Source: a virus
IMG/VR virus record: IMGVR_UViG_3300010403_000024
Coordinates: 1 to 64,000 of that record
Length of the DNA: 64,000 nucleotides
Strand: one strand, 5' to 3'
Part shown: positions 11,915 to 58,867 of the stretch, piece by piece
How positions within the stretch are numbered: position 1 is the first letter of the stretch
Layout of the letters: each line of letters opens with the position of its first letter
Program-made: the position numbers and the translations under genes
The notes under the pieces: model-generated
Database searches by the model: none
What the model was told of the DNA's origin: nothing
The model's input: the letters and a program-made list of their open reading frames with translations, nothing else

Positions 11915-13594
11915 ATGAAAAAGAAGATTCTTTGGGGAGCGCTCGCGCTAGTCGTGCTAACCGTCAGCCTGTGGGCGGCGGCCCCGACGTTTTTGGGCGG
12001 CAAGGCGCAGGTGACGACGCTGCATCCAACCACCAATTACATCCTGGCGATCATGGGCAACTCGACCTCGGCGGTGTACCGGCTGATCAACGACAGCAAT
12101 CTACTGCACCAGATGCTGGCGCTGCCGGAGGCGACGAATTTTACCGGGACCCTAGGCTCCAACGCCGCGCAGAATGTGGCAGTGTGGACCAACGACACGA
12201 CGCAAATCAGACCCAAGGTTGGAAGCTCCGTTGTGCCAGTTAGAATCTACGACGGCGCGGGCAGCAACGTCGTTAGATTAAATACCAACGGGCAATTGAG
12301 GCTTGGTAAGTTTGCAGAACTAATCTTCAACCCCCACGCTGATGATGCCGGAATTTACGACATCCACGCAAATTCTGAGGGGAAGAAGTGGGTGGAATGG
12401 GACGTTGCGATTTACCAAAATGATGACGGTAGCGGCGATTACGCACTAGGGAAGTTCGACTTCGATATTCAAAATCCGGGTGGTTACTTTGGACGAATAA
12501 TTACCAAAACCCGGTTTGGTTCAACCAACATCGAAACATACCTGATGTCAGATTATACACAGGGAGGTGCCGCGCTTAACCTTGTTGGAGCAAACAATAC
12601 CATCGTCTGGCAAAGCGACCCCGATCCATCTCAGCCTTTCATGTTTTACGTCCTGCAAGGCGGTGTAATGCGAATGGTGTTCACCACGAACGACTGGTCA
12701 GCCTTTTTCTCAAGCAACGTATTTGTCGGTGGAACAATCAGCGCCTCAAACGCAACCGCTAGCCGATTGGCGGCATTCGATGCTGGAAAGCGTTTAACCA
12801 ACAGCGCCTATAGCGATACGGATATTGCTGCTTTGCAAGGTGGCACCAATGGCTTGAATGGAAGCAAAATCGACAAACTGAACGGCACAGGAACGAATTT
12901 TTCCGTAGGGCATTTCACCGGCACTACGAATTGGAATTTCGTGTCTCGCGGCACCAATGGCCAACCGACCGGGTTCGGCATTGACACCAATGGTGTGACG
13001 CACCTCGGCACAAACACGGCGAGCGATACGATGTTGAGTAACGCCCCTGGAGTGTTCTCGATACAAACCAGCAACAGCGCATCATCAAAATTTTACCAAA
13101 CGACAACAGGTGTTGGAGTTGGGCAGAGTGCGCCCGCAAACATACTTCACGTGACCCCTCCAGTTGGGAACACTCAGAATGGGTACTTGCGAGTTGACGG
13201 CACCAATGGGTCTCAAGCTATCAATCTTGGTGTTTACCCAACCTCGCAGCAATTTGGCGCTGTCTATGGTGGTGTCAATGCGCCAACGGCAAATAATTAC
13301 ATGCTGCGCGGTGACGGCGGAAACCAGACCACGGTTAACGGTCCCGGCGCTTCCACGATCATAACATTCGCCATCAACGACGTTACCAAGAATCAAGTCC
13401 TTTCAACGGGTGCTTTCAGTGCTGAAACAAACTCTATCATTCTCAAGGGCACCAATTCAATCTCCGCCCCAAACGCTTCGCTTGCCTTTATGGGTGCTCA
13501 GTTATGGACGGATGGCACTAACCTTTGCATCGTTTTTCAAAACGCAGCAGGCACCAGAACCACGAACAAAGTGAGCCTAACTGCATGGCCCTAA
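11915..13594 (+). CDS. Tail-fibre-like protein with Sec signal peptide, Thr-Asn rich
   Basis: MKKKILWGALALVVLTVSLWA signal; TASRLAAFDAGKRLTNS and GVGVGQSAPANILHV fibre motifs; about 18 TN dipeptides. Confidence 0.75.
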   Translation: MKKKILWGALALVVLTVSLWAAAPTFLGGKAQVTTLHPTTNYILAIMGNSTSAVYRLINDSNLLHQMLALPEATNFTGTLGSNAAQNVAVWTNDTTQIRPKVGSSVVPVRIYDGAGSNVVRLNTNGQLRLGKFAELIFNPHADDAGIYDIHANSEGKKWVEWDVAIYQNDDGSGDYALGKFDFDIQNPGGYFGRIITKTRFGSTNIETYLMSDYTQGGAALNLVGANNTIVWQSDPDPSQPFMFYVLQGGVMRMVFTTNDWSAFFSSNVFVGGTISASNATASRLAAFDAGKRLTNSAYSDTDIAALQGGTNGLNGSKIDKLNGTGTNFSVGHFTGTTNWNFVSRGTNGQPTGFGIDTNGVTHLGTNTASDTMLSNAPGVFSIQTSNSASSKFYQTTTGVGVGQSAPANILHVTPPVGNTQNGYLRVDGTNGSQAINLGVYPTSQQFGAVYGGVNAPTANNYMLRGDGGNQTTVNGPGASTIITFAINDVTKNQVLSTGAFSAETNSIILKGTNSISAPNASLAFMGAQLWTDGTNLCIVFQNAAGTRTTNKVSLTAWP

Positions 13595-14055
13595 AACTCA
13601 TCATCGCCTCACTCCTGATTGCGCTTAACCTGAACGCGCAGATCGTTCCAGTGCTGGCCACGAATGGCCCTGCATTGCTGACGACGGCAGTGGCTACAGA
13701 CTTTCCTTCACAAACCACCACGTCATCCACCAACTGGTCTTCCGGCAAGTTCTACACCAACGATCTCTCCCACGAAATCGAAGTGGCCTGTTCGATAACG
13801 AATGTCATGGCCGCTGTCGTCGGTTTCAGTGGCATGGAATTGTGGGTAGGCTACACCACTAACAGCGCCACCTTGCTCGGTGTGGGCGCGACCACCACCA
13901 AAACACTCCTGACTGGACTGGCCACCACTCAGGAAATGCACTTGCGCGGGCGTGTGCCGGTAGGCGGCTATTTCACTTTCACAAACATCTCGTCTGGAGC
14001 AGGTAACTCAGTGACGATGCGGACCGGCTCCGGACAATACACGATTCTGCCATGA
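13585..14055 (+). CDS. Secreted Thr-Asn-rich beta protein
   Basis: MALKLIIASLLIALNLNA|Q signal; ATG 13585 overlaps fibre end; 6 TN. Confidence 0.75.
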   Translation: MALKLIIASLLIALNLNAQIVPVLATNGPALLTTAVATDFPSQTTTSSTNWSSGKFYTNDLSHEIEVACSITNVMAAVVGFSGMELWVGYTTNSATLLGVGATTTKTLLTGLATTQEMHLRGRVPVGGYFTFTNISSGAGNSVTMRTGSGQYTILP

Positions 14056-14717
14056 AGTTCTTAATCATTTTCCTAACCGTGCTCTCGTGCTTCGGGGCAC
14101 AGCAACCGCCTGCGACGTGGCAACTCTACAAGTGGGCGCTGAACGGTAATGGCGACTACACACCAGTAAGCGCACCGGGCAGCGGTGGTGACGTGGCAAC
14201 CTTTGCCTTCGGAGCATCGACGAAGCCTTACGCCGCGTTCCTTACCACCATCGTTGATACCAACCTGCTTGGCGATCTCACGGGCAAGCAACTCACTGCA
14301 ACCGTCAGTGTCTCTGGCAGCGCCACATTCGTTTACGGCGGACAATTCTCATGGAACTCCAACAGCACCGTTCCTGCCAACACGCGCCTTTATTTCTCGA
14401 CCAGCGCCGCTACCTACGACATCGACATTGCCAACACCAACTCAACCGCTTTTTGGTGGAGCCATTACGGAGTGTGCGTCATCACCAACGGCGCAGGCGG
14501 AATAATTGCGGACACGTTTACCCCATCGCATTGGTCCGACGCAAACGGGCATCCCGGCGACGATCCTGGCTACATCGACGCTTTCAATGCGGCAGTGGCC
14601 AATGTTCAACAGATCGGCGTGAGTTTTGGTGGCGGAAGTTTTTTCGATTGCGGAGTAGCCCTATGGCCGCACACTGGATCGGCATCGTTCCACTTGGTTT
14701 CATTTACGGCGAACTAA
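14052..14717 (+). CDS. Secreted carbohydrate-binding-like beta-sandwich protein
   Basis: MKFLIIFLTVLSCFGA|Q signal; IGVSFGGGSFF motif. Confidence 0.7.
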   Translation: MKFLIIFLTVLSCFGAQQPPATWQLYKWALNGNGDYTPVSAPGSGGDVATFAFGASTKPYAAFLTTIVDTNLLGDLTGKQLTATVSVSGSATFVYGGQFSWNSNSTVPANTRLYFSTSAATYDIDIANTNSTAFWWSHYGVCVITNGAGGIIADTFTPSHWSDANGHPGDDPGYIDAFNAAVANVQQIGVSFGGGSFFDCGVALWPHTGSASFHLVSFTAN

Positions 14718-14721
14718 CATT

Positions 14722-14835
14722 ATGACCTTCTCATTCATATCTAGCTGGTTTGAATTTGGTATAGCCGTGATGATGTTAGTGCTGTTTTTGATGGTCAAGA
14801 CTTGGTTTAAATGGTGGAAAGCTGATCGCAAATGA
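14722..14835 (+). CDS. Small single-TM membrane protein (37 aa)
   Basis: MTFSFISSWFEFGIAVMMLVLFLMVKTWFKWWKADRK; ATGA-coupled to next gene. Confidence 0.5.
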   Translation: MTFSFISSWFEFGIAVMMLVLFLMVKTWFKWWKADRK

Positions 14836-15143
14836 GCACTAAACCACAACCAAACTGGGCAACCATCGGCACGGCCTTGGCGATGGTCACCATCGGCGCG
14901 GTGCAGTACTGGAACGGCCACAAACAAGACGTAGCCAACGCTCTCGCTCGCGACACGCACACGCTCGTCAATTCACAAATGGGCGCTCAGAAGAAGCTGC
15001 TCGCGGACGTTACCGCCGCCAAAGCCGCCATCACGAAGACACCCGAAGACAAACAAGCCGCAGCCGATGCTTGGAAAGATTGGCAAGACCACGTAGCAAA
15101 ACAGAACCGCGTGGACGACGAACACCGCAACAAAAAGGAATAA
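14832..15143 (+). CDS. Membrane-anchored coiled protein, lysis-cassette candidate
   Basis: N-terminal TM then THTLVNSQM. Confidence 0.6.
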   Translation: MSTKPQPNWATIGTALAMVTIGAVQYWNGHKQDVANALARDTHTLVNSQMGAQKKLLADVTAAKAAITKTPEDKQAAADAWKDWQDHVAKQNRVDDEHRNKKE

Positions 15144-15144
15144 C

Positions 15145-15294
15145 ATGAGCACTATACTTATCGGCCTCTGGTTAATTTTATTCGGCGCAATGTCATTAAT
15201 TTCAACGAAGGTGCCGGATTGGATTGTGCCACTCGCAGCCATCGCAGTTGGCCTTATCGTTCTTGTCGGGGCGTGGAGAAGGCCAAACCCTTGA
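15145..15294 (+). CDS. Small two-TM protein (49 aa), holin-like
   Basis: MSTILIGLWLILFGAMSLISTKVPDWIVPLAAIAVGLIVLVGAWRRPNP. Confidence 0.6.
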   Translation: MSTILIGLWLILFGAMSLISTKVPDWIVPLAAIAVGLIVLVGAWRRPNP

Positions 15295-15397
15295 TGCGTA
15301 ATGGAAGAACCGCACAAGGACGTGCGCAAGCGCCCGAAAAAAGACTGCGACATGATTCGTGAATGCTGGGAATGGGTGAAACTAAAGAAAGAACAGA

Positions 15398-16162
15398 ATG
15401 AACGCCGGAACCGACCTTCTCGACCAGTTAAAAACAACTCCGCACTGGATGCTGGTGCTCATCGGGTTGACCATCTTCGGGGTCTATTGGAAGCGCAGCC
15501 AGTGGCCGAACCGTTATCTGAAATTCGTCAACCTCATCCTGCCGACCATCGCCTACCCGATTCTTCATTACGGGCCTGACGCCGAGCACTCCTACTGGAA
15601 TCCCATCGCGACACTCGCCTTGCACGGCTTCGCGATCGGGATCGCCAGCGAGTTTGTGCATGAAGGGATCATCACGAAGATCAAGAACGTGTTTCCGGGG
15701 TTCAAATTCCCGGACGAACCGCCACAACCACCTGGAGCACCCCCAAGCATGAAAACCCTCCCGATCTTTCTGCTCGCCGCTTTGCTTTCCGGCTGCTCGT
15801 ACGTGCGCCCGATCGGCAGCATCGGCGACGTGACTTTCTACAAGGTGCAATCGACCAGCATCCTCGGCCCGACCGTGAACGTGCTCGTCACCCGCACCGG
15901 GTGCTGCGCGACGAACGTGCAGGTCTATGGCGCTTATGCCGGCAACGGGATGCTGCCGGCGGTGGCGGGGGCGGGCGGGATCGTGGGCGGTCTTTACCTG
16001 CTGGGGGAAGCGGCGCGGCACAACGGGAGCCAGAGCAGCCAGCAGAGCGTCCAGAACGTGCAGAATACGGTGACGACCGCGATTGAGCCGCCGACGGCAC
16101 CCCCGGCGCCGCCGATTGGCCCTAGCCGCCCGCCGGATAACCGGCCGCCGGTGCATCGTTAA
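15398..16162 (+). CDS. Holin-like three-TM domain fused in frame to a lipoprotein (internal start 15749)
   Basis: LIGLTIFGVYWKRS..PNRYL...HGFAIGIASEFVHE, then MKTLPIFLLAALLSG|C lipobox and Pro-rich tail. Confidence 0.65.
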   Translation: MNAGTDLLDQLKTTPHWMLVLIGLTIFGVYWKRSQWPNRYLKFVNLILPTIAYPILHYGPDAEHSYWNPIATLALHGFAIGIASEFVHEGIITKIKNVFPGFKFPDEPPQPPGAPPSMKTLPIFLLAALLSGCSYVRPIGSIGDVTFYKVQSTSILGPTVNVLVTRTGCCATNVQVYGAYAGNGMLPAVAGAGGIVGGLYLLGEAARHNGSQSSQQSVQNVQNTVTTAIEPPTAPPAPPIGPSRPPDNRPPVHR

Positions 16163-16225
16163 AAAGCGACTCCGCAATTTTGCTGTTGCGCACCGGCTGG
16201 TTGCGCTTAACATGCGCCCGACGAT

Positions 16226-16873
16226 ATGAAATACCTTCTACTCCTTCTTGCCATCGCAACATCACTCGCAGCGCAGGAGCCGCCCATGCCCCCGATGCCG
16301 ATGCCAGTAACACTCAATCGTTCGGTTGCTGGAAATGACTCGGTTCGAGCGGCTAAGCCCGCGCCTCGAAGCTGGACAAAACCTACACTGTTCACAGTCA
16401 ACTGTCCCGAGTGCAGCAAAACACTAAAAGGTGTTCCAGCTTTGGCTATCAAAGTTGACAATCGGCATTGGATGACCAATGGAATTCGCATCGAGCGTAC
16501 AGTGCGATTGGCTTGTCCTGATTGTCGTGAAGAGTTCGATGCTGCAAACGTGAAGTTTTTGCCAAAACCAATCGCTATTGAAGAGGGAGATCAACCGCAA
16601 GCGAGCGTGAAGAGTTTGGACGTAGTAAATCCCATGCTGCGCCTGTCGATAAAGCTAACGAACTGTATCCCACCCGGTGCTGCCGAAGGTCCTGCGGTCG
16701 AGCTGAGTTTTCAAACGGAGTTTGGGAAGCTCTACGAGTGCCAGGCCAGCGACGACAATTTTCAGTCGTGGCTTGGTTCGGTGCCCTTGGCCGGGACCGG
16801 CACCGTCTTGTCTCGGTTTGAATCACCGAGTCACACGCACCGCATGTATCGGGTGAAGGAGACGACTTTATGA
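16226..16873 (+). CDS. Secreted protein with CxxC pairs and Verrucomicrobia-type C-terminal domain
   Basis: MKYLLLLLAIATSLAA|Q; CPEC, CPDC; AVELSFQTEFGKLYECQASDD..W..GTG..RMYRV. Confidence 0.72.
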   Translation: MKYLLLLLAIATSLAAQEPPMPPMPMPVTLNRSVAGNDSVRAAKPAPRSWTKPTLFTVNCPECSKTLKGVPALAIKVDNRHWMTNGIRIERTVRLACPDCREEFDAANVKFLPKPIAIEEGDQPQASVKSLDVVNPMLRLSIKLTNCIPPGAAEGPAVELSFQTEFGKLYECQASDDNFQSWLGSVPLAGTGTVLSRFESPSHTHRMYRVKETTL

Positions 16874-17218: not shown

Positions 17219-17537
17219 CCTTTAAGAGCCGGCGGTACATCTTGCGCTGTTCGCGGTTGGAGTTCTTCACATGCGACCAGACACCCTTTTTTAAGAACTG
17301 CACATGGCGGCGCAGGTGGAAGAAATCGACCCCGCAACCGCGGGCAAAGGCGTCGATGGTCTCGATCTTCACGCCAGCCCAGGTGCGGCGCACGGAGAGG
17401 CTGCTGACGGTCGCGAGCGACAACCCGGAGCGGGCGGCGATCTGGCGGGCGGAGAGGCCGCGGCGCCCATGCGACTGGCGCGCGACCAGCCGGCAGAGGT
17501 GCGGCGGGAACCGATCCAAGAACTGGAGCAAAGTCAT
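17214..17537 (-). CDS. XRE-like helix-turn-helix protein
   Basis: LSARQIAARSGLSLATVSSLS; coupled to terminase. Confidence 0.75.
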   Translation of the reverse strand: MTLLQFLDRFPPHLCRLVARQSHGRRGLSARQIAARSGLSLATVSSLSVRRTWAGVKIETIDAFARGCGVDFFHLRRHVQFLKKGVWSHVKNSNREQRKMYRRLLKV

Positions 17538-19120
17538 ACCGAAATGATCCCGGATTCTTCCACGTCGGGCTGCGGGCGGGCGGTGGGCTTGAACGCCTCT
17601 TCGAGCATCTCGGCCTGCATCTCCTTAAAGATCGGGTAGGAAAGGGCGTCGAAGACGTGGAGGTCCTCGCTTTTGACGATGTAGTGGTTGTTCGATTGGG
17701 AGAGGTTCTCCAGCATCTTGCGGACCTTGACGCATTTGGCGGAGATGAACAGCCGCTCCTCCTGCAGCAGGATCGAGATCATGCGGACGCGGGTGCGGCG
17801 GCTGTGCGCGGGTTTATGGACCCCTTCGAGCGAGATCGTGCCCCCGGAGGCTTTGGAGATTTCGAGGTAGTCGTAGGGGTTGTCGCTGTTCGGGCGGAAG
17901 ACGTTGAGGGCCGAGTCGTCGGCGTAATGGTCCCACTCGAACTTCTTGCCCGCATGCTTCTCGATGGTCAGGATCGATTGCATGACCCATTCGGTGAAGA
18001 CATCGAGTTTGACGCATTCGTCGTGGGACATGCCGGTGCCGATGTGAACGATCTCGTCCAGAACCGTCCAGCAGCTAATCTCCTTGCCCGCGACCAGCCG
18101 CAGCCATTTATCGAGCAGGATGACGGCGTGGTTGACGCCCCCGATGTCCCATCCGGATTTGAGCTTGGTGGTGGTCGGGGCAACCTGGGCCTGATCCTCT
18201 TCGCCGTCGTTTCCACCGACCAGGTGTTTCGAAGGGCTGAACAAGTGGCGGAAATGGAACTTGGTCTCGAAGCCGCCGACGCCCCAGATGCCGTCGTAAT
18301 AGGCTTCTTTGAGGGCCCGGTCGCCGCGGCAGGTGGCGAAGAGCCGCACCTGCTGCTGGCGGGTCATGTGTGGGTTATCGCGCCAATGCATGTGGATGAC
18401 GCGCATCTGCTTGTAGAGCTCGGACATCATGGCGCGCTCGTCGTCGGTCTCCTCCGGGATCGGGGGTTTGTTGCGCTCGACGTAAAAGACCTGATAGATC
18501 CAACTGTTGCGCCCCATCACCTCGTCGGGGTTGGTATCGGCGATCCATTCGATGAAATTTTCGGCGTATTTCTCCATGCCAGGCATGCGCAGGCTGTTGA
18601 TCGTGATCGGGAGCAGCTTGCGCTCTTTCCACATCGAAAGCTCGACGAAGTACATGCCGGAGAAGTTTTTATTTTTGACCTTCTCCTCGATCTCGTTCTC
18701 GTTATTGATCGAGAAGAGCCAGACCCGGGAGCGGCCCCCGTACCAGTTGCGGACATCGCAGTAGGCGGTGCGGGTGTTGGCATCGACCTTGGGGCCGGGG
18801 TTGCCCTCGGCCGTCTTGCTGACGATGGCGAAGCGGCTCTTGCCGTCGCGCCCGACCAGGTTGGCGTCGATCCATTGGGGCAGGATATGCTCGATCAGCA
18901 TCTGCCAGGAGCCGCCGTCTTTGGCGAGCTTGACCGATTTGGCGAAGATGCCGTATTGGGCGGCGGGAGTCATCCAGAGGTGCTTGGCGATGCGGTGGAG
19001 GATGGAATAGGTCTTCCCGCTCCAGCGGCTGCCGTCCACAAGAATGATCTGCTCACGACAGTTAAACACGTCCCATTGCTTAGAGAAAAGTGAGGGTAGC
19101 CATTGGGGATGGTCGGACAT
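17534..19120 (-). CDS. terL: Terminase large subunit
   Basis: LFSKQWDVF Q-motif, GSRWSGKT Walker A, MYFVE Walker B, DTNP, DNPH, GWDIG nuclease, HVFDALSY. Confidence 0.9.
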   Translation of the reverse strand: MSDHPQWLPSLFSKQWDVFNCREQIILVDGSRWSGKTYSILHRIAKHLWMTPAAQYGIFAKSVKLAKDGGSWQMLIEHILPQWIDANLVGRDGKSRFAIVSKTAEGNPGPKVDANTRTAYCDVRNWYGGRSRVWLFSINNENEIEEKVKNKNFSGMYFVELSMWKERKLLPITINSLRMPGMEKYAENFIEWIADTNPDEVMGRNSWIYQVFYVERNKPPIPEETDDERAMMSELYKQMRVIHMHWRDNPHMTRQQQVRLFATCRGDRALKEAYYDGIWGVGGFETKFHFRHLFSPSKHLVGGNDGEEDQAQVAPTTTKLKSGWDIGGVNHAVILLDKWLRLVAGKEISCWTVLDEIVHIGTGMSHDECVKLDVFTEWVMQSILTIEKHAGKKFEWDHYADDSALNVFRPNSDNPYDYLEISKASGGTISLEGVHKPAHSRRTRVRMISILLQEERLFISAKCVKVRKMLENLSQSNNHYIVKSEDLHVFDALSYPIFKEMQAEMLEEAFKPTARPQPDVEESGIISV

Positions 19121-33816: not shown

Positions 33817-33821
33817 ATTTT

Positions 33822-34622: not shown

Positions 34623-34623
34623 C

Positions 34624-34806: not shown

Positions 34807-34810
34807 AACT

Positions 34811-38491: not shown

Positions 38492-38521
38492 GGGCCACGG
38501 CTCTGTGTATTGGTTGCCGAT

Positions 38522-43655: not shown

Positions 43656-43672
43656 ACGGAGTATTTGAAGCT

Positions 43673-43972
43673 ATGCGAGTCAATCTGCCGAACACACCGG
43701 GGTTCAACAATAACGATGCGACGCTGCTGGCGACCATTGTGGCGGCGCCGACCGACAAGGTGATTCTGATTACCGCTCGCGGCACGTTTCTATGCACTGT
43801 CTCGCAACTGGTTTCTTCGGCGGGGACGACGGTGTTCCCGACGGGGGTCGGGTCGCCGGAAGGAGCGGTCACGGCCGATGTGGGCACGCCCTATATCGAC
43901 ACCGACGCCGATGCGCTCTGGTACAAGAAGACCGGGAGCGGGAATACCGGATGGCAGCAGTTGCTCGCGTAA
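43673..43972 (+). CDS. Short tail-fibre-associated protein
   Basis: GSPEGAVTADVGTPYID...LWYKKTGSGNTGW motif. Confidence 0.75.
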   Translation: MRVNLPNTPGFNNNDATLLATIVAAPTDKVILITARGTFLCTVSQLVSSAGTTVFPTGVGSPEGAVTADVGTPYIDTDADALWYKKTGSGNTGWQQLLA

Positions 43973-43978: not shown

Positions 43979-44461
43979 ATGAAGACACTTTTGGGAATCA
44001 TCGGAATCATCTGCGGGTTGCTGCTTGGGGCCTCGCTCTTTGGGGCGGCCCCATTGCAGCGCAATTACTGGACGACCAACGCGGTGCCGGTCGGCGAGCT
44101 GCGGACCAACCCGGCCTCGACGTTGACGGCGGTCTCCTGCTCATTCGACACCAACGGTCCAAGGTACTGGTTCTGGACGAACATGGTGACGAACGTGACG
44201 GTGAACCTGACCAACACCTGGAGCGCGACTCGGACCAACCGGACGCTGGACTTCTTCTTTACCGGCGCGACCAACAACGGACCGAACTACACCGTGACCT
44301 TCCAGACGCTGAACCCCGCCGGGGTCGTTTATCGCTGGGGGATATTTTCTCTCACCAACGGCGCGACCAGTTTCAGCGTGACCAACAATGGAGGGGCTGG
44401 GGCGAGCCTTACGCTTTGGAACACGAATCTGGTTGAGGGGTATTTTTCGCCGACGCACTAA
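43979..44461 (+). CDS. Secreted Thr-Asn-rich protein
   Basis: MKTLLGIIGIICGLLLGASLFGA signal; 11 of 18 Asn preceded by Thr. Confidence 0.8.
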   Translation: MKTLLGIIGIICGLLLGASLFGAAPLQRNYWTTNAVPVGELRTNPASTLTAVSCSFDTNGPRYWFWTNMVTNVTVNLTNTWSATRTNRTLDFFFTGATNNGPNYTVTFQTLNPAGVVYRWGIFSLTNGATSFSVTNNGGAGASLTLWNTNLVEGYFSPTH

Positions 44462-44474: not shown

Positions 44475-45284
44475 TTGAATTTGGATTTGCGATTTTGGAA
44501 AGGAGCGGCTGCTTGCGCAGCCTTTCTGGCTTTTGCCCTGATCGCTAGCGCGGATCGGCGCGGGCAACTTTCGCAGCAACGACCGGCATCGGGTTGGGTG
44601 GACCCGTCGGGATCGAACACGCTCTATGCGTGGTGGGTGTCGAGCGACTTTGCGGTGAACCTGTCGGTCAACAACACCAACCCGTGGATCGACCGGGTGC
44701 AGGGGCGGCTGCTCAGAAATGGTAACAGCACCACCAGCGCAACCAATGCCGCCCTTGGCATTTACACAGCAGACGCCAGTGGTGGCCTTACCAACGCCCC
44801 AACAGCCCAAGGCTCCAATTCAACTTACTGCATTATCTTTCGTCCGTTAAATCTCTCCAGTGGAGACAACACATTCAACACCTGCCTAAGCGGCCCTTAC
44901 TCTTTAGGTGACGGAACACAAGGCAGCACTCCCGGCTCCTTTGCAATCAGAAGATCGACGCGCGTTATTTACTGGGGGACTTTCAACATTAGCGGCCAAG
45001 CCATCTCGTCGCCTTTGGCAAACGACACCACTTACGATTTAATTAGCGTTCAGACCAACAGCACCATGGTAGTTTATACCAATGGCACCCAATCTGCGTC
45101 CATAACAGCGATGCCGCCATTAACGGGTTGGCCCTGGTTTTGGGTGGGACATGATACAGACAGTGCGGCCAACCATTTTGACGGTTATATTAAGGAAGTG
45201 CTGATCTGGAGCAACAGTTTCTCGTCGGTGCAGTTGTCGAATGTTCATTTTTACGCTACCAACCAATACTCCTTTGCTCCCTAA
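44475..45284 (+). CDS. Secreted LamG/concanavalin-A-like lectin with DRRGQL peptide
   Basis: ASA|DRRGQLSQQRP; LYAWW, VYTNG, FDGYIKEVLIW. Confidence 0.8.
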   Translation: MNLDLRFWKGAAACAAFLAFALIASADRRGQLSQQRPASGWVDPSGSNTLYAWWVSSDFAVNLSVNNTNPWIDRVQGRLLRNGNSTTSATNAALGIYTADASGGLTNAPTAQGSNSTYCIIFRPLNLSSGDNTFNTCLSGPYSLGDGTQGSTPGSFAIRRSTRVIYWGTFNISGQAISSPLANDTTYDLISVQTNSTMVVYTNGTQSASITAMPPLTGWPWFWVGHDTDSAANHFDGYIKEVLIWSNSFSSVQLSNVHFYATNQYSFAP

Positions 45285-47372: not shown

Positions 47373-47669
47373 ATGAGCAGTCCCGAAACAACCCAACTGC
47401 ACGCGACCGTGCCCTCAGCGACGGGTTCTCCGACGGCTGAAGAACTCGCAGCACTGAAGGCCGAAAATGCGCAACTGAAAGACATCATGCGCAAGTGCAA
47501 CCGGGACGGGCACCGGCTGAAGGATTTCATCATCGCGTGCAATGGGCCGGGCGAGATGATTCGCTTCCAAGAGGCGGCGACCAATAACAAGGGCGTCGAT
47601 ATTTTCTTGAGCTACCTCGACAGCTTGTGGCGCGAACTCGATAAGGCCAAGTCGGAGGCTAACAAATGA
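47373..47669 (+). CDS. Hypothetical protein
   Basis: Coupled to next gene. Confidence 0.55.
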   Translation: MSSPETTQLHATVPSATGSPTAEELAALKAENAQLKDIMRKCNRDGHRLKDFIIACNGPGEMIRFQEAATNNKGVDIFLSYLDSLWRELDKAKSEANK

Positions 47670-49192: not shown

Positions 49193-49225
49193 TTTTTTAC
49201 AGAAGGCAACGAAGGTAACAAAGAA

Positions 49226-50143
49226 ATGCAGACTATAGTTATTTATCACCGAAGCGACTTCGACGGCATCTTTTGCAGGGAGGTCGCCCGCAAGTTTCTA
49301 CCGCAGGCTGAATTGATCGGATGGGAGTACGGCGACCCGGTGCCGTCGGTGCCGGAGGAAGCGCAACTCTACATCCTCGATCTGAGCGTGGAGGGCCTGA
49401 TGCAGCACCCGAACCTGATCTGGATCGACCATCACAAGAGCGCCATCGACAAGTACCCATCGACGATCAAGGGCTACCGGATCGATGGCGTGGCGGCCTG
49501 CCGGCTGGCCTGGCAATGGTTCGCGAAGAAGAAAAACGCTTATCCCTGGACAGCTATAATTGACTGGCCAGAGAAGCAGCATTTTGTCCGCAGGGAAGTT
49601 GAGGAACCAATAGCCGTGCGCCTCGCCGGTGAGTACGACATCTGGGACAGGAGAAATCCCGACGCTGAACTGTTTCAGCACGGACTGCGTAGCCAGGATC
49701 TTGAACCGCTCTGGGAAATTCTTTTGTCTGGCCCATTCTCGGAGGACGCAGACGGCAAAGTTGGGTTGGACGAAATCACGGTCGATGCGCTGCTCGAAGC
49801 TGGACGCGCGCTCCAATACGCCAAGACCAAGGAGAACGAATCGATCATCAAGGCCCAGAGTTTCCGCATGCAATGGGAGGGGTTGCGCTTCCTCTGCTGC
49901 AACCATGCGCGCTTCAACTCATTTTTGTTTACGGCGGGACTGACACCCGACGACGACGCCTGCCTGGGCTTCTGCTGGGATGGCCGAAAATGGAAAGTCT
50001 CGCTCTACCACGCGACGGGCAAGGAGCACATTGATCTATCAGTGATCGCGGTCAAGCATGGGGGTGGAGGCCACCGCGGCGCTTGCGGGTTCGCCTGCGA
50101 TACGCTGCCCTTCCCATTGAAGACTCCATCCGACCCCGCTTGA
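49226..50143 (+). CDS. DHH/DHHA1 phosphoesterase
   Basis: YHRSDFDG, ILD, WIDHH, GGGGHRGACG. Confidence 0.9.
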   Translation: MQTIVIYHRSDFDGIFCREVARKFLPQAELIGWEYGDPVPSVPEEAQLYILDLSVEGLMQHPNLIWIDHHKSAIDKYPSTIKGYRIDGVAACRLAWQWFAKKKNAYPWTAIIDWPEKQHFVRREVEEPIAVRLAGEYDIWDRRNPDAELFQHGLRSQDLEPLWEILLSGPFSEDADGKVGLDEITVDALLEAGRALQYAKTKENESIIKAQSFRMQWEGLRFLCCNHARFNSFLFTAGLTPDDDACLGFCWDGRKWKVSLYHATGKEHIDLSVIAVKHGGGGHRGACGFACDTLPFPLKTPSDPA

Positions 50144-50149
50144 GGTAGT

Positions 50150-50608
50150 GTGATCGAAATCAAAAAATCTGAAACCGCCGATACCCGGACCTGTGACTTC
50201 GCCAACACGTCCAAGGAAACATTGCTGGCATCCAGCCGGCAGCATATCGGCGACGTGGTGAAGGCCCTCGCTTTCTTCTCTGCCAAGATCACGGAGGCCG
50301 CGGGCGAACATGACTATGACAAGCTGACCGCCATCGACTGGTTTCATTCGGACTTCGTGACTGGATTCAAAAAGACTGGATGGTGGGATAATCATCGGAA
50401 GATCCACCGGCACCACCTCGACAAGGCCGATGGGGTGCCGGATAACGTGAACCTGCTCGATGTTATCGAACACATCGCCGATTGCGTGATGGCCGGAATG
50501 GCGCGGAGCGGGAACGTCTATGAATTGAAGCTGTCGGATGAACTACTCCAACGCGCCTTTCGGAACACAGCCGAACTGCTCAAGGCGCAGGTAAGGGTGC
50601 AGGAATGA
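50150..50608 (+). CDS. HD-domain protein (DUF5662-like)
   Basis: H...HDYDK...HRHH...EHIAD. Confidence 0.72.
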   Translation: MIEIKKSETADTRTCDFANTSKETLLASSRQHIGDVVKALAFFSAKITEAAGEHDYDKLTAIDWFHSDFVTGFKKTGWWDNHRKIHRHHLDKADGVPDNVNLLDVIEHIADCVMAGMARSGNVYELKLSDELLQRAFRNTAELLKAQVRVQE

Positions 50609-50823
50609 CCACCAGCGCCACCCAAAAGCCGGCGCCGCACCCGTTCTACGGCGATGCCTACGAGCGGGGCAAAGATCCCTGGCACAAGGAGGCGTTCCCG
50701 GATGGGTTCAAGGACGCCGCGCCCAATCAGGGTGATCGGCGCGAGGGCTGGTTTCTACTCGACGGCTTCGGAAACGCCATCGGCTTCGTGCCCGATGGGA
50801 CGGAACTGCCAACCCCAACCTGA
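50605..50823 (+). CDS. Hypothetical protein
   Basis: Coupled small ORF. Confidence 0.55.
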   Translation: MTTSATQKPAPHPFYGDAYERGKDPWHKEAFPDGFKDAAPNQGDRREGWFLLDGFGNAIGFVPDGTELPTPT

Positions 50824-50824
50824 G

Positions 50825-51106
50825 ATGATTTTGGAAGCGACCACGAAGAATATTGAGTGGCTGGTTGAACGCCTCTACGAAGTCAGGCGCTACATGCAGG
50901 CTGAAGGCATTGAGAATCCAACCTTTGTGCTGCTCACGAAAGGCGAGGAGGACCGGCACAGGATTGAACGGATCTTTTTTTTGTATTTCCAATCCCGCTA
51001 TGGAATCCCATCCTTTGAGTGCATTCAAGTGGCTGAAACCAGCCGGTCGCACAGCCGGTACGAACTGCCAAACATAGGCGCGTCGATCATCTTAATGGAC
51101 ATCTGA
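50825..51106 (+). CDS. Hypothetical protein
   Basis: ATG 50825. Confidence 0.55.
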   Translation: MILEATTKNIEWLVERLYEVRRYMQAEGIENPTFVLLTKGEEDRHRIERIFFLYFQSRYGIPSFECIQVAETSRSHSRYELPNIGASIILMDI

Positions 51107-51109
51107 ATC

Positions 51110-51628
51110 ATGAGAAGACACTGGTCTTATCTGCAATATGTCCTTCGGCACAAATGGTTTGTATTCCTCGCCGGCCTTAAAACTGGCGCGCCACTGTGGC
51201 GGTTGATCATCCACGACTGGAGTAAGTTCCTGCCCTGCGAATGGGGGCCATACGTGCGGAGCTTCTATAACCGGGATGGCAGCAAGCGCGATTGGAAGAC
51301 GCGCGACCCTTGGGACAAGGTGGAGTTTGACTGGGCGTGGAACCACCACCAGAAATCGAACGATCACCATTGGCAGTACTGGTTACTGACCAACGACTCG
51401 GACGATCCAAAGCACCGCCCACTGATGATGCCGGAGGAATGCGTGCGCGAGATGGTGGCCGACTGGATGGGGGCGGGGCGGGCCATTACCGGCAAGTGGG
51501 ATGCGCTCAACTGGTACGGACAGAATCAAGGGAAGATACTGCTGCATGAACTGACGCGCAGCCAAGTGCGCGAGATCCTCGAACGCGCCATGGAGAAAAT
51601 GGTTCTCGACAAGCGGGGCAAAAACTAA
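51110..51628 (+). CDS. HD-domain protein (DUF5662 family)
   Basis: RHKWFV, HDWSK, HHQKSNDHHWQYW, EMVADW.GA. Confidence 0.82.
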   Translation: MRRHWSYLQYVLRHKWFVFLAGLKTGAPLWRLIIHDWSKFLPCEWGPYVRSFYNRDGSKRDWKTRDPWDKVEFDWAWNHHQKSNDHHWQYWLLTNDSDDPKHRPLMMPEECVREMVADWMGAGRAITGKWDALNWYGQNQGKILLHELTRSQVREILERAMEKMVLDKRGKN

Positions 51629-53694
51629 TGGCCGCGCGAGTCCCATACAAGCCGATCACCATCCGCCCGATCGATGGCTTGCTCGATACTCGTCTGACCC
51701 CGGACGAGATCCCGATTGGCGGGTACCGCTACGTCGAAAGCTGGGAATGCCTGGCACGGGGCAAGCTCTGCCGGATGAGCGGCTGGCGGCGATTGCTGGA
51801 CGAGGAGTTCAATAACAACGCGGATCTGCACGATCAGTTGCTGACGATCACCGAGCGGGAAGTGCGGCAGCCGATCATCTTTCTCTTTACGCATCCGATG
51901 CCGCTGGGGACGAACAAGTTTTATGCCGCGAGCGCCAATGTGCTGTATGCCCTCAACAACGGGACGGGCAACTGGAAAGTGATCGGCGACGAGTTCAGTC
52001 CCGCCCAGAGCGCCTCCTGCCCAGAGGTGAGATGGAGCGCGGCGGGCTTTGGCGACGTGGTGGTATTCAGCAACGGGATCGACCCGGTAGTTTATCAGGT
52101 GGTCGATCAGCCGGCGCTGGGCGACACCGACCAGAGCGTGCAGACGATCAGCGACCTGGAACTGTTGAACATCACGCGGGTCGGGTTTGTAAAGCAGTTC
52201 GCCGGCCTCACCATTTACTTCAACGTCGTGCAGGATGCGGTGCGGCACAGTTACCGGGCCATCTGGAGCGATTATCAAAATCCGCTGAGCGTGAAGCCCA
52301 AAGCCAGCGCCAGTGTCGCGGGCTACAAGGACCTGGACTTTGGCGAAGTGATATTGGCGGCGGAAGAACTGGGCAACTCGCTGGTCGTCTATACCAACAA
52401 AGCGATCTGGCAGGCGGATCTGGGGGGCGACGCCGGGTTGATCTGGAGCAAGCGCTATTCACCCAAGGATGTCGGCGACCGCTGCTTGGTCTATCCGCGC
52501 ACATTGGTCTCGACCGGATCGGAGCATTACTTCTTTGCCCGCGACGGCATTTACCTCTTCTCGCAGTATGTGGCCAAGCCGCAGCGCATCGAGTGGATTC
52601 ACAACGCGAGCGCCATTGTCTTCGAGGACCTGGACAGCAGCCGGTGCGTGGTGCATCACGGGGCCCATGAGGTGGACAAGAAACAAATCTGGTGGAGCTG
52701 GGCCAAGACGGGCGAGGCGTGTCCGACCCAGAGCTTTGTGATCAACACCGAGTATTCCTTTGCCTCGCTGGTGCCGAAAGGGTTTAGCGCCTTCGGGTTG
52801 TTTGGATTTATCCGGCAAAGGATTCTGCGCGATTTCTTGATCGAGAAGTGCATCTGCGACGCCGCCGGGTTGGAGGAGAACGGGCTGGGCTTCGTGCATG
52901 AAGGCGGCTTCTGCGCGGCCCCCGCCGACTGCACCGGCTGCGACGCGGACACTGAGAGCGACTGCGAGGCCCCGACCTCGATCTACACCAACGAGACGGT
53001 GGACCTCGACGGTGTGGAGGTCGAGGACCTGAACTTTGGTGGCGGCAACACCCCGGATGCACAGTCGCTCTGCACGGCGTTGGCGGGGTTGACCGTGCAG
53101 GACCTCTGCCAGGTGGAAGCGGTCGCGGCCGAGTGCAAGGACGCGGATTTGTTTATCGGGGCCAGCACCGAAGATTTTTGTTTGAAGGAGATGGACAGCG
53201 AGGTGCGCTACCGGGAACGGTGCAGCGACATGGCGGGCTGCGGGACCTACATCAAGGACGGGTATCTGAGCATCCTGCGGAGCGGTCCGCTCGACTTGGG
53301 CTTGCCGGAGCAGGAGAAGCGCATCAGCCGCTTCGGGGTGGAGATACATCCGGAGGAGCAGAGCGTGCCCAGCCAACTGGAACTGAAGGTGGGAAGCGCG
53401 GTGCAGGCGATTGACCCGAACAAGTTCGACGAGAACGGGCGCTGCGTGATCATGTACCGGGAGGAAGTGCCGCGCAGCCTGGAATGTTTATCAACCAAGA
53501 CGGCGGTCGAGCACGCCGAGGCTGGGACGCGCCCGGACGAGGACGTGGCCTGGACGCTGGATATGATCGGGCGCTATTTCTATTTTGAACTGACGGTCAG
53601 CAACCCGAACGTGAGTCCACCGAATACGGGCGGGGCGGTCTGTTTGTCGCGGATCAGTTTCCGGGCCGGGGCGGCGGCGATGCTGAAGATGTAG
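51628..53694 (+). CDS. Tail stabilisation / nozzle protein (P22 gp10-like), Cys-rich
   Basis: GLLD..LTP N-terminus, beta-propeller-like VVFSNG.D, IWSD, VYTNKAIW, DGIY. Confidence 0.72.
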   Translation: MAARVPYKPITIRPIDGLLDTRLTPDEIPIGGYRYVESWECLARGKLCRMSGWRRLLDEEFNNNADLHDQLLTITEREVRQPIIFLFTHPMPLGTNKFYAASANVLYALNNGTGNWKVIGDEFSPAQSASCPEVRWSAAGFGDVVVFSNGIDPVVYQVVDQPALGDTDQSVQTISDLELLNITRVGFVKQFAGLTIYFNVVQDAVRHSYRAIWSDYQNPLSVKPKASASVAGYKDLDFGEVILAAEELGNSLVVYTNKAIWQADLGGDAGLIWSKRYSPKDVGDRCLVYPRTLVSTGSEHYFFARDGIYLFSQYVAKPQRIEWIHNASAIVFEDLDSSRCVVHHGAHEVDKKQIWWSWAKTGEACPTQSFVINTEYSFASLVPKGFSAFGLFGFIRQRILRDFLIEKCICDAAGLEENGLGFVHEGGFCAAPADCTGCDADTESDCEAPTSIYTNETVDLDGVEVEDLNFGGGNTPDAQSLCTALAGLTVQDLCQVEAVAAECKDADLFIGASTEDFCLKEMDSEVRYRERCSDMAGCGTYIKDGYLSILRSGPLDLGLPEQEKRISRFGVEIHPEEQSVPSQLELKVGSAVQAIDPNKFDENGRCVIMYREEVPRSLECLSTKTAVEHAEAGTRPDEDVAWTLDMIGRYFYFELTVSNPNVSPPNTGGAVCLSRISFRAGAAAMLKM

Positions 53695-58043: not shown

Positions 58044-58051
58044 CACTCTTT

Positions 58052-58867
58052 ATGAAAAACTGGATTGCCAAAGCCACGCGCAACAAGGGCGGCTTGCACC
58101 GCTTTTTGATCGCAGCGCTCGCGCTCGCGCTCTGCCTGCCGGTCTTGGCGGATCGGCGCGGTCAACTGATGCAGCAGCGGCCAGGGAGTGCGGCGGCAAC
58201 CGCCATTCACTACTGGAAATTCGACGAGTCAGCCAGTCCATGGGCAGATTCGGTCGCGGCCACGGCCATGACTTCGGGCGACGCCGTGCTCTCAGCGACC
58301 GGGATACTCAATCTTGGAGTACGCTTCGCGAGTGTCGGAGCGACCCCAATCACGATCAATTCGGACAATGCCGCAAACATCGTGATCGGCGGAGCCGGAC
58401 TCACCTTCACCGCTTGGGTAAAGTTTGCCAGTTTTGGCACCAGCGCTGGGGCGCAAATCTTTTCCTTCACCGGCTCCTCACCGCTGAAACGATTCAGGGT
58501 GGTGGTCGATGACACTGGCACGCCAAATTTCTACATCGGGTTATCATTGCAATACACACCGACCGCGACATTTGCTCTCAACCAGTGGACGCTGGTGCGC
58601 ATCCAGTACGACAACTCGACCAAGAAATTCGGCTTTCAAAGGTCGGATGCCATGAACGGGATCGGCTCGCTGGAGGAGAGCGCGGTAGTCTCAGACTTGG
58701 CAGGGAGCACCAGCGGCTTCATCCAGTTGAGCAGTGACGGGGGGCCGGCGGCCTCAAATGATTATATTGAGGACGAGTGCGGGTTATGGAACCGGCTCTT
58801 GAGTTCGGGCGAGCACAGCACGCTCTATGGCGGCGGCTCGCCGCCATCGTACCCCAACGTGCCTTAA
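58052..58867 (+). CDS. Secreted LamG/concanavalin-A-like lectin with DRRGQL peptide
   Basis: VLA|DRRGQLMQQRP; IHYWKFDE, TFTAWVK, DECGLWNR.LS..E...LY. Confidence 0.82.
   Translation: MKNWIAKATRNKGGLHRFLIAALALALCLPVLADRRGQLMQQRPGSAAATAIHYWKFDESASPWADSVAATAMTSGDAVLSATGILNLGVRFASVGATPITINSDNAANIVIGGAGLTFTAWVKFASFGTSAGAQIFSFTGSSPLKRFRVVVDDTGTPNFYIGLSLQYTPTATFALNQWTLVRIQYDNSTKKFGFQRSDAMNGIGSLEESAVVSDLAGSTSGFIQLSSDGGPAASNDYIEDECGLWNRLLSSGEHSTLYGGGSPPSYPNVP

What the first reader, a model, noticed from the sequence alone, without database searches (positions are those of the whole stretch)
11915..58867. Candidate new system: a Sec-exported kit of phage fibre and lectin proteins
Seen: seven genes in structural-gene context begin with classic SPI signal peptides (11915, 13585, 14052, 16226, 43979, 44475, 58052). 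They include a protein with tail-fibre motifs and two LamG lectins, and 43979/44475 sit directly behind a tail-fibre-motif gene. Capsid, portal, nozzle, VWA and FN3 proteins have no signal. Known: tailed-phage virions assemble in the cytoplasm and their fibres normally lack signal peptides. Inference: these subunits mature in the periplasm and join the particle at or after lysis, giving two-compartment assembly. The alternative is that they remodel the infected cell surface.
Basis: partly seen in the sequence, partly recalled or inferred. Interest (0 to 1): 0.9.

Follow-up and report, generated by a model that had tools for sequence, protein, structure and literature searches.

The report
Exported fibre-like proteins of a phage
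A probably temperate soil phage puts ordinary bacterial export signals on seven late proteins built from tail-fibre and sugar-binding parts, and relatives in other phages keep those signals, so these proteins very likely work outside the cytoplasm where phage particles are built, though what they do there is not known.

Summary
All seven ORFs start with a charged, hydrophobic, small-x-small N-terminus. No other called gene does except one lysis-type membrane protein. For six of the seven, homologues in other phages keep a hydrophobic leader even though its sequence has diverged. The 43979 domain sits at the C-terminus of about 25 protein clusters, and every full-length member has a leader. It folds like the T4 gp10 / CBA120 TSP4 docking domain of phage tails. 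44475 and 58052 are LamG lectins that share a leader plus the peptide DRRGQLxQQR. 14052 looks like a carbohydrate-binding module.

The pair [leader...gp10-like domain] then [leader-DRRGQ-LamG] recurs in four phage contexts, with stop and start overlapping or a few bases apart. None of the seven is present in the four closest relatives, so they are mobile accessory cassettes. The phage has an integrase and a leaderless fibre candidate (47666).

Export is well supported, at about 0.8. Joining the particle after lysis is not supported (about 0.12). I favour action on the envelope of the infected or lysogenic cell.

There are no paired cysteines and no excess of glycosylation motifs. Host and expression are unknown, and SignalP was not available. 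This scan has noted the same theme on many other genomes.

The parts
11372..11653 (+). Small leaderless protein (93 aa). It is the first gene of a tight operon that follows a terminator-like hairpin at 11282-11294.
   Evidence: phrog_34166, unknown function, E 6e-6. Terminator-like site. Gaps of 33 and 18 nt to the next genes.
11687..11896 (+). Small Gly/Asp-rich leaderless protein (69 aa) with DPEGGG repeats.
   Evidence: Translation. No family hit.
11915..13594 (+). Leader-bearing fibre-like protein (559 aa). It has a modular domain after the leader, and N/T-rich composition.
   Evidence: Leader. Residues 22-65 are 66% identical to L031 9878-10009 and to P0015, both behind a leader. A 46-aa motif is shared with the fibre-repeat protein P0001. 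Atlas look-alikes are phage tail-fibre families at low TM, a lead only. Its C-terminal end is shared with L031 16626-17366.
13585..14055 (+). Small leader-bearing protein (156 aa), always downstream of an 11915-type fibre gene.
   Evidence: Leader with Q at +1. 85-87% nucleotide identity to L031 17280-17651, which has the same leader. Overlaps 11915 by 10 nt.
14052..14717 (+). Leader-bearing beta-sandwich protein (221 aa), probably a carbohydrate-binding module.
   Evidence: Leader with Q at +1. The Atlas's own model has pTM 0.77. Nearest clusters are 212-263 aa hypothetical proteins (TM 0.73-0.75). Weaker look-alikes are CBM-type families, a lead only. ATGA overlap with 13585.
14832..15143 (+). 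Membrane protein with one N-terminal hydrophobic segment (103 aa). Holin- or antiholin-like by position.
   Evidence: Flagged by the leader rule. No family hit.
15398..16162 (+). Lysis-like ORF. It has N-terminal hydrophobic segments, then an internal start (Met118) followed by the lipobox LLSGC and a later hydrophobic segment.
   Evidence: Translation. No family hit.
16226..16873 (+). Leader-bearing protein (215 aa): Pro-rich linker, two CxxC pairs, C-terminal beta domain.
   Evidence: Leader with Q at +1. P0038 (74% identity) keeps a divergent leader before the conserved QEPPMPPMP. The L031 homologue of the C-terminal domain has a hydrophobic N-terminus. Weak zinc-ribbon hits lie below cut-off.
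43673..43972 (+). Leaderless 99-aa protein that precedes the 43979-type gene.
   Evidence: C-terminal motif hits PHROGs of unknown function. Homologous 104-aa genes sit directly before leader-bearing 43979-type genes in L030 and L034, and L031 has a similar pair.
43979..44461 (+). Leader plus gp10-like docking domain (160 aa).
   Evidence: The domain is C-terminal in about 25 clusters of 147-951 aa, 23 of 27 with leaders. Model pLDDT 68. The top structural matches are all phage virion proteins, at Z 8.2-9.8, with the next match at 6.5.
44475..45284 (+). Leader, DRRGQLSQQR peptide and LamG lectin (269 aa).
   Evidence: PF13385 at 31.5 bits against a cut-off of 27.6. Family alignment A1. A low-confidence model matches ConA-like lectins. 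The same gene pair occurs in G006, L031 and L033.
58052..58867 (+). Second leader-DRRGQLMQQR-LamG lectin (271 aa), with a long basic n-region. It lies between tail-module genes and the giant protein gene.
   Evidence: PF13385 at 28.1 bits. Shares only the N-module with 44475. Its C-terminal end resembles the leaderless LamG protein G006 7639-9273. Gaps of 8 and 3 nt to its neighbours.

Best explanation
The seven genes are mobile accessory cassettes of a probably temperate soil phage. Each protein has a genuine Sec / signal-peptidase-I leader, so it leaves the cytoplasm.

The mature proteins are made of phage tail parts and sugar-binding parts: a gp10/TSP4-type docking domain, fibre-like N/T-rich stretches, two LamG lectins and a CBM-like sandwich. 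They come as fixed gene pairs: fibre or hub followed by a small partner or lectin.

I infer that each pair assembles in the periplasm, or further out, into a glycan-binding fibre-lectin complex. This complex would act on the envelope of the infected or lysogenic cell. Most likely it binds or masks the surface glycan that serves as receptor, which would block superinfection and stop new particles from sticking to debris.

Shown here: the leaders and their conservation, the folds, the gene pairing, and mobility between distant phages. Inferred: export, complex formation, and the envelope target. My odds: export 0.8; envelope action given export about 0.5.
For: - Leaders: canonical N-termini on exactly these genes. 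In homologues the leader stays hydrophobic while its sequence drifts.
- Glutamine follows the hydrophobic core in about 17 of 34 leader proteins outside the DRRGQL family, against 9% of background windows. This is the pattern of real signal peptidase I substrates in Bacteroidetes (PMC5837995).
- The model of 43979 has a leader helix, a disordered linker and then a beta-sandwich.
- Folds: the gp10-like domain matches only phage virion proteins at the top, Z 8.2-9.8. LamG passes the Pfam cut-off. 14052 is CBM-like, a lead only.
- Pairing: [leader...gp10-like] then [leader-DRRGQ-LamG] occurs in the window, G006, L031 and L033. [11915-type] then [13585-type] occurs in the window and L031. Both partners of each pair carry leaders.
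- Accessory and mobile: none of the seven is in the four closest relatives. They have lower GC and atypical codon use. The 13585 cassette is 85-87% identical in DNA to one in a phage whose capsid and portal are only 24-27% identical in protein.
- The phage has an integrase and a leaderless fibre candidate with a conserved N-terminus.
- Precedent that fibre-like proteins can be Sec-exported and shown on a cell surface: Bdellovibrio MAT fibres (PMC10769870).
- Precedent for phage genes with Q-rule leaders, proposed to modify the outer membrane: PMC10367356.
Against: - No trained signal-peptide predictor and no experiment. My rule alone is barely above chance.
- The two LamG proteins carry net positive charge (DRR) right after the leader, which in E. 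coli hinders Sec export (established knowledge).
- The genes sit in late operons, with stop and start overlapping or a few bases apart, next to structural or lysis genes. I found no promoter or terminator of their own, unlike classic morons.
- No route across the outer membrane is identified. There is no lipobox and no type IX secretion sorting domain by HMM.
- The gp10-like fold is otherwise known only from virion parts, which favours a virion role.
- Relatives G001 and G002 carry large leader-bearing proteins with beta-helix and GDSL-like domains right after the nozzle-like gene, where tailspikes are usually encoded.
- The host is unknown and no binding target was tested.
Confidence: 0.4

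Rival explanations
1. Two-compartment assembly. The fibre and lectin subunits fold in the periplasm and dock onto cytoplasm-built particles during or after lysis. The dock might be the leaderless 43673 protein or the VWA protein, and the docking peptides might be conserved mature N-terminal peptides such as DRRGQLxQQR or P-x-QRN.
For: - The gp10-like fold is known only from virion docking domains.
- The genes lie in the tail module, tightly spaced against structural genes.
- A leaderless 99-104 aa gene is conserved directly upstream of the leader-bearing hub gene in three or four contexts.
- Mature N-terminal peptides are conserved on otherwise different bodies.
- Module shuffling is like that of tail fibres.
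- Relatives place leader-bearing beta-helix and GDSL-like proteins at the tailspike position.
Against: - No tailed phage is known to assemble this way (established knowledge; none found).
- Docking after lysis would have to work in a diluting lysate.
- No paired cysteines and no excess of glycosylation motifs give a reason for periplasmic folding.
- A leaderless fibre candidate exists.
- The seven genes are dispensable in close relatives.
Confidence: 0.12
2. Lysis or release helpers. The exported fibres and lectins work with the neighbouring holin-like and lipoprotein genes on peptidoglycan, the outer membrane or extracellular polysaccharide, to free the progeny.
For: - 11915-14717 lies directly upstream of 14832-16162, which has membrane segments and an internal lipobox.
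- In L033 a leader-bearing trio sits directly before two membrane proteins and a lipoprotein.
- Relatives carry leader-bearing beta-helix and GDSL-like enzymes.
Against: - No catalytic domain was found in any of the seven.
- The 43979/44475 pair and 58052 are far from the lysis genes.
- Tail-fibre and lysis genes are often neighbours anyway.
Confidence: 0.12
3. The hydrophobic N-termini are not export signals in the host. The proteins stay in the cytoplasm and are ordinary virion fibres, or the segment serves as a membrane tether or assembly helix.
For: - No trained predictor was run and the heuristic has a sizeable false-positive rate.
- There is basic charge directly after the LamG leaders.
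- One database gene call for 16226 omits the leader.
- Signal-peptide calls on phage capsid proteins are treated as non-export in PMC10367356.
Against: - Leaders are kept in 23 of 23 full-length members of the 43979 family and in all five retrieved 44475 homologues, while the leader sequence drifts.
- Small-x-small sites and a five-fold excess of glutamine at +1.
- No core structural protein has such a segment.
Confidence: 0.1
4. Surface display for adhesion. The conserved C-terminal domains act as sorting or anchoring domains, so the infected or lysogenic cell shows phage lectins and fibres on its surface, as Bdellovibrio shows MAT fibres.
For: - The architecture is leader, variable body, conserved C-terminal domain.
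- C-terminal domains of 13585 and 16226 are conserved in L031.
- MAT fibres are a precedent.
- The glutamine excess and scarce Shine-Dalgarno motifs hint at a Bacteroidota host, where leader plus C-terminal domain is the usual secretion format.
Against: - No type IX secretion sorting-domain HMM hit at E 0.1 or below.
- The C-terminal domain of 43979 matches phage gp10-like domains, and no sorting domain is listed among the 50 best of 48,161 chains.
Confidence: 0.08

Closest known systems
Bdellovibrio bacteriovorus mosaic adhesive trimer (MAT) fibres (Caulton et al. 2024, PMC10769870)
   Same: Phage-tail-fibre-like mosaic proteins that start with a signal peptide. They are exported, shown on a diderm cell surface, and bind glycans.
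   Different: MAT genes are chromosomal genes of a predatory bacterium. Their conserved domain (about 130 aa) follows the signal peptide, and their tips vary. Here the genes are in phage late operons, the conserved gp10-like domain is C-terminal, and a separate leader-bearing lectin gene follows. Sequence relatedness to MAT proteins was not tested.
T4 gp10 and CBA120 TSP4 N-terminal docking (XD) domains; Klebsiella phage KP1 baseplate protein; Pseudomonas phage Pa223 capsid spike
   Same: The same beta-sandwich fold as residues 38-160 of 43979: Z 8.2-9.8, rmsd 2.4-3.0 A over 95-100 residues. In those phages the domain holds other fibres or spikes.
   Different: Those proteins have no signal peptide and are built into the particle in the cytoplasm. 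Sequence identity is only 8-11%. Here the domain is at the extreme C-terminus, behind a leader.
Exported accessory proteins of temperate and lytic phages: lambda Lom and Bor, T5 Llp, the Cor lipoproteins of T1 and phi80 (established knowledge)
   Same: Signal-peptide or lipoprotein genes placed in or next to tail-fibre and lysis genes. They act on the host envelope, and Llp and Cor mask the receptor.
   Different: Those are small outer-membrane proteins or lipoproteins unrelated to fibres, and they usually have their own promoter. The proteins here are fibre- and lectin-type, come as pairs, and show no promoter or terminator of their own.
Signal-peptide genes of Porphyromonas gingivalis phages that obey the Bacteroidetes Q-rule (Matrishin et al. 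2023, PMC10367356)
   Same: Phage genes of unknown function whose leaders expose glutamine. They were proposed to use host secretion and to modify the outer membrane.
   Different: That paper does not describe fibre or lectin proteins or conserved gene pairs. No sequence relation was tested.
Tail fibre plus downstream chaperone or adhesin pairs (T4 gp37/gp38, lambda Stf/Tfa; established knowledge)
   Same: A fibre gene followed by a small partner gene, exchanged together between phages.
   Different: In the known pairs both partners are cytoplasmic and lack leaders.

Membership tests
Sec / signal peptidase I signal peptide | Basic n-region, uncharged hydrophobic core of about 8-18 residues, small residues at -3 and -1 | tested here: met
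   My own rule flags all seven. It is a heuristic with 1.5-7% false positives on non-gene ORFs.
Sec / signal peptidase I signal peptide | The leader is kept in homologues while its sequence diverges | tested here: met
   Searches show this for six of the seven. No homologue of 14052 was retrieved.
Sec / signal peptidase I signal peptide | Call by a trained predictor (SignalP, DeepTMHMM), and cleavage in the host | not testable with these tools
   No such predictor is on hand. The host is unknown.
Laminin_G_3 / ConA-like lectin (PF13385) | Pfam score above the gathering cut-off of 27.6 bits | tested here: met
   44475 scores 31.5 bits and 58052 scores 28.1 bits. A low-confidence model of 44475 matches ConA-like lectins.
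gp10-like / TSP4 XD docking domain of phage tails | The same beta-sandwich fold over most of the domain, standing clear of unrelated matches | tested here: met
   Z 8.2-9.8 for the phage proteins against 6.5 for the next match, in a search of 48,161 chains. The model has pLDDT 68.
gp10-like / TSP4 XD docking domain of phage tails | Trimer that binds another fibre or spike | tested here: inconclusive
   The complex job on 43979 domain with 44475 gave no verdict. Trimer formation was not tested.
Virion tail fibre or receptor-binding protein | An N-terminal anchor domain shared with fibres known, or expected, to be in the particle | tested here: not met
   No hit of any of the seven in the four relatives or in cultured phages. 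The domains after the leader recur only behind leaders.
Virion tail fibre or receptor-binding protein | Presence in purified particles | not testable with these tools
   The lineage is uncultured. Capsid-like and nozzle-like proteins have no match in 50,697 phage records.
Type IX secretion cargo (signal peptide plus C-terminal sorting domain) | Match to the sorting-domain models in NCBIfam | tested here: not met
   No such family at E 0.1 or below for any of the seven. By structure the test is inconclusive: no sorting domain is listed in the top 50.
Moron / lysogenic-conversion gene | Own promoter and terminator inside a late operon; expression in the lysogen | tested here: inconclusive
   Consensus scans found no excess of sites, and the host's promoter type is unknown. 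An integrase is present. No RNA run was found.
Bdellovibrio MAT fibre family | Conserved beta-rich domain of about 130 aa directly after the signal peptide; trimeric beta-prism shaft | not tested
   No MAT sequence was compared. The resemblance is of architecture only.
Spanin (for 15398-16162 only) | Lipobox with Cys, and a membrane anchor, next to a holin and an endolysin | tested here: inconclusive
   An internal lipobox LLSGC and a later hydrophobic stretch are present. No endolysin was identified and there is no family hit.

The most novel reading that the evidence does not exclude
The outer host-recognition gear of this phage group is built in two compartments. A leaderless stub (43673-type, or the VWA protein) is mounted on the tail in the cytoplasm. 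The leader-bearing hub (gp10-like domain) and the DRRGQ-tagged lectins fold in the periplasm and snap onto the stub when the holin and spanin genes open the envelope. On this reading, interchangeable exported cassettes set the host range.
Probability: 0.12. Interest if true: 0.9.

Novelty: new variant of a known kind. Interest (0 to 1): 0.6.

Why it matters
Tailed-phage particles are thought to be built wholly in the cytoplasm, and exported phage proteins are thought to be lysis proteins or small exclusion factors. Here, domains otherwise known only from virion tails carry conserved export signals, together with lectins, and travel between distant phages as fixed gene pairs.

If they act on the envelope, this is a new class of phage tool for reshaping or masking host surface glycans, made from recycled tail parts. 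If they end up on the particle, a basic rule of phage assembly would need an exception.

In practice, gene callers can drop the leader (16226), and annotation pipelines would label such genes as tail fibres. That would mislead host-range prediction.

Tried and rejected
- Complex prediction of the 43979 domain with 44475: no verdict.
- Cultured-phage collection: no match for the capsid-like protein, the nozzle-like protein, 43979 or 14052.
- Species genomes: no relative of the 43979 domain. The capsid alignment found only a 3.4-kb contig in a MAG labelled Candidatus Obscuribacter, which is too short to name a host.
- A DNA pattern for DRRGQLxQQR in IMG/VR gave ten chance hits in non-coding or Arg-rich frames, none behind a leader.
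- 11915 has no relative in IMG/VR and only a 46-aa motif match in 5.8 billion proteins.
- PADLOC: no hit. NCBIfam: nothing above cut-off.
- Bacteroidota O-glycosylation motif D-[ST]-[AILMTV]: 6 seen against 5.9 expected. No paired cysteines.
- N-x-S/T sequons occur about as often as the N/T-rich composition predicts, except in 44475 with 9 against 4.6.
- Sigma-70 promoter and terminator scans: no excess.
- TANNTTTG: 19 seen against 11.5 expected, not significant.
- No RNA holder was listed. Laid contigs show only that identical pieces occur in a second, rhizosphere study.
- 43673 against solved structures: only weak similarity to a beta-propeller blade, E 0.03.
- PHROGs gave no hit for the large leader-bearing proteins of the relatives.
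- Literature searches found no report of signal peptides on tail fibres of tailed phages.

Full report
**What the DNA is.** The window is the first 64 kb of a single 77,439-bp virus record of about 60% GC.

- A large terminase lies at 17534-19120 on the minus strand (phrog_2, E 3e-14).
- The core that is conserved in four IMG/VR relatives (G001-G004; capsid-like protein 38-57% identical) is: a portal-like gene 19818-22304; a capsid-like gene 26854-28734; 39186-40886 (metallophosphatase fusion); 41475-43655 (VWA); 47666-49192; 51628-53694 (phrog_3287, virion structural protein); and a 2564-aa protein from 59884.
- A tyrosine integrase lies just outside the window, at genome 68655-69572 on the minus strand (PF00589, 52.7 bits). 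ERF and YqaJ recombination genes are at 5671-7229. The phage is therefore probably temperate.
- No cultured phage matches the capsid-like or nozzle-like protein.
- The DNA comes from soil. Identical pieces occur in a second, rhizosphere study.

**Checking the observation.** I wrote a simple n/h/c-region rule and ran it on 89 called genes. It flags exactly the seven claimed ORFs plus 14832-15143, a lysis-type membrane protein. No core structural protein is flagged.

The rule is lenient. It passes 19 of 260 non-gene ORFs (4 of 260 with a short n-region). Shuffling the first 40 residues of the real proteins gives 3.1 hits on average and at most 8. The count alone is therefore weak evidence.

Conservation is strong evidence:

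- The 44475 family (five homologues, 49-63% identical) always has a short leader of drifting sequence in front of the conserved ADRRGQLSQQR.
- An exhaustive HMMER search with 43979 found 27 further proteins. The homologous part is always their extreme C-terminus.
- 23 of these 27 begin with a leader. The exceptions are two truncated entries and the two weakest hits.
- The 13585 homologue in L031 has the same leader, with a stop codon just upstream.
- The 16226 homologue P0038 has a different leader before the conserved QEPPMPPMP. One database gene call for 16226 starts at Met21 and loses the leader.
- The domain after the leader of 11915 recurs behind leaders in P0015 and L031.
- Glutamine follows the hydrophobic core in about 17 of 34 leader proteins outside the DRRGQL family, against 9% of background windows.
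- That is the pattern reported for signal peptidase I substrates of Bacteroidetes (PMC5837995). It argues that the leaders are really cleaved.
- Together with scarce Shine-Dalgarno motifs (20 of 89 genes against 14% at random), it hints at a Bacteroidota host. This is a lead only.

**What the proteins are.**

- 44475 and 58052 pass the Pfam cut-off for Laminin_G_3. A low-confidence model of 44475 matches only ConA-like lectins.
- The model of 43979 (pLDDT 68) is a leader helix, a disordered linker and a ten-strand sandwich.
- In a search of 48,161 solved chains, the four best matches to 43979 are a Klebsiella phage KP1 baseplate protein (Z 9.8), the Pa223 capsid spike (Z 8.9) and two entries of the CBA120 TSP4 N-terminus (Z 8.4 and 8.2). 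The next match scores 6.5.
- The T4 baseplate (chain 5iv5_AC) scores 8.7 in the second look at Foldseek's matches. This is the gp10-type docking domain of phage tails.
- 11915 is fibre-like by composition, by a motif shared with the fibre-repeat protein P0001, and by its Atlas look-alikes. The last is a lead only.
- 14052 has a confident Atlas model. Its nearest clusters are hypothetical proteins, with weaker CBM-type look-alikes.
- 16226 has two CxxC pairs and a C-terminal beta domain.

**Gene pairs and mobility.**

- The order [leader...gp10-like domain] then [leader-DRRGQ-LamG-like] is found in four places: the window (43979/44475); G006, a complete 56.6-kb phage of 52% GC (5029-6753 / 6750-7490); L031, from a 75.7-kb contig (9818-10429 / 10428-11219); and L033 (1036-1749 / 1746-2591). 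In G006, L031 and L033 the stop and start overlap; in the window they are 13 nt apart.
- A leaderless 99-104 aa gene precedes the hub gene in the window, L030 and L034, and L031 has a similar pair.
- An 11915-type gene followed by a 13585-type gene recurs in L031, at 85-87% DNA identity. The capsid and portal of that phage are only 24-27% identical in protein to those here.
- None of the seven has a match in the four closest relatives. The genes have lower GC and atypical codon use.
- These are therefore mobile accessory cassettes in which both partners are leader-bearing.

**Context.** 43979, 44475 and 58052 lie inside the tail module. 11372-16873 is a tight block that starts after a terminator-like hairpin. 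It ends in lysis-like genes: 14832, and 15398 with an internal lipobox. L033 shows the same adjacency.

Relatives G001 and G002 carry other large leader-bearing proteins right after the nozzle-like gene. One has a right-handed beta-helix domain above the Pfam cut-off. Another has a GDSL-like hit below the cut-off. The theme therefore extends beyond this genome.

**Which mechanism.**

- Export is the simplest reading of conserved canonical leaders. I put it at about 0.8.
- I found no reason for periplasmic maturation of virion parts. There are no paired cysteines and no excess of the Bacteroidota O-glycosylation motif (6 seen, 5.9 expected). N-x-S/T sequons occur about as the N/T-rich composition predicts.
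- The phage has a leaderless fibre candidate whose first 163 residues are conserved in all relatives (47666-49192; phrog_496).
- With the integrase and the accessory nature of the cassettes, I favour action on the envelope of the infected or lysogenic cell, such as receptor masking or exclusion (overall 0.4).
- Against this reading: the genes show no promoters of their own, no route across the outer membrane is identified, and the gp10-like fold is otherwise virion-only.
- Two-compartment assembly stays possible, at about 0.12.
- Other rivals are help with lysis or release, non-functional leaders, and surface display through a sorting-type C-terminal domain.

**Comparison with what is known.**

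- The closest working analogue is the Bdellovibrio MAT family. These are phage-fibre-like proteins with signal peptides that are shown on the cell surface and bind glycans (PMC10769870).
- Phage genes with Q-rule leaders were noted in Porphyromonas phages, but not on fibres (PMC10367356).
- I found no paper that describes signal peptides on tail-fibre-type proteins of tailed phages.
- This scan has recorded the same theme on many other genomes. Later checks there rated the observation at 70-80 in 100 and the virion reading at about 10 in 100. My own odds are similar and rest on the tests above.

**Limits.** There was no trained predictor. The host is unknown, and there are no expression or proteome data. 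The complex job gave no verdict.

Noticed in passing
genome 68655-69572 (-), outside the window (L046:4655-5572): Tyrosine integrase (PF00589, 52.7 bits), directly after the giant protein gene. Homologues are in G001 and G002. The phage is probably temperate.
   Followed up: partly
window 5671-7229 (-): YqaJ-like exonuclease and an ERF single-strand annealing protein, a recombination pair in the early arm.
   Followed up: no
window 33073-34622 (+): Radical SAM genes, one with a SPASM domain, right after the capsid-like region. A paper on a bacterial radical SAM-matured periplasmic effector that blocks phage DNA entry (PMC13128918) turned up in the searches. Any link to the exported proteins is untested.
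   Followed up: no
window 39186-40886 (+): A conserved 566-aa core protein carries a calcineurin-like phosphoesterase plus the purple-acid-phosphatase C domain (Pfam above cut-off), in the head-to-tail part of the structural module.
   Followed up: no
window 43640-43972 (+) versus 41475-43655 (+): The ORF of the leaderless 99-aa protein can start at TTG 43640. That start overlaps the end of the VWA gene by 16 nt in another frame. Its motif matches the C-terminal ends of long PHROG families. A frameshift extension of the VWA protein is conceivable.
   Followed up: no
G001 48884-53245; G002 32030-39988 (L011, L014): Relatives carry 413-1453 aa leader-bearing proteins directly after the nozzle-like gene. 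One has a right-handed beta-helix domain (34.5 bits) and one a GDSL-like hit below cut-off. The two largest share the leader plus the first 49 residues (84% identical) and a 316-aa block (89% identical), but differ elsewhere.
   Followed up: partly
window 16226-16873: A database gene call (P0037) starts at Met21 and drops the leader. Automated annotation can hide this kind of feature.
   Followed up: yes
window 13508-14056 versus L031 17280-17651: 85-87% DNA identity, with a 170-nt indel, between two phages whose capsid and portal proteins are only 24-27% identical. This points to a recent cassette transfer.
   Followed up: partly
window 49226-50143 (+): A DHH phosphoesterase (phrog_4771, E 8e-30) sits inside the tail module. 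A homologue in G001 lies next to the portal gene instead.
   Followed up: no
L035 (JADYXS010000299.1, 3.4 kb): A capsid homologue (47% identical) sits on a short contig binned into a Candidatus Obscuribacter MAG. This is probably a binning artefact and not a host assignment.
   Followed up: no
window 44475-44560 and 58052-58195; G006 6750-6850; L033 1746-1830: The peptide DRRGQ(L/I)xxQ(R/H)P directly after the leader is kept on LamG bodies that are otherwise unrelated. Its basic charge is unusual for the start of an exported protein. Its role (docking tag, sorting tag or processing site) is unexplained.
   Followed up: partly
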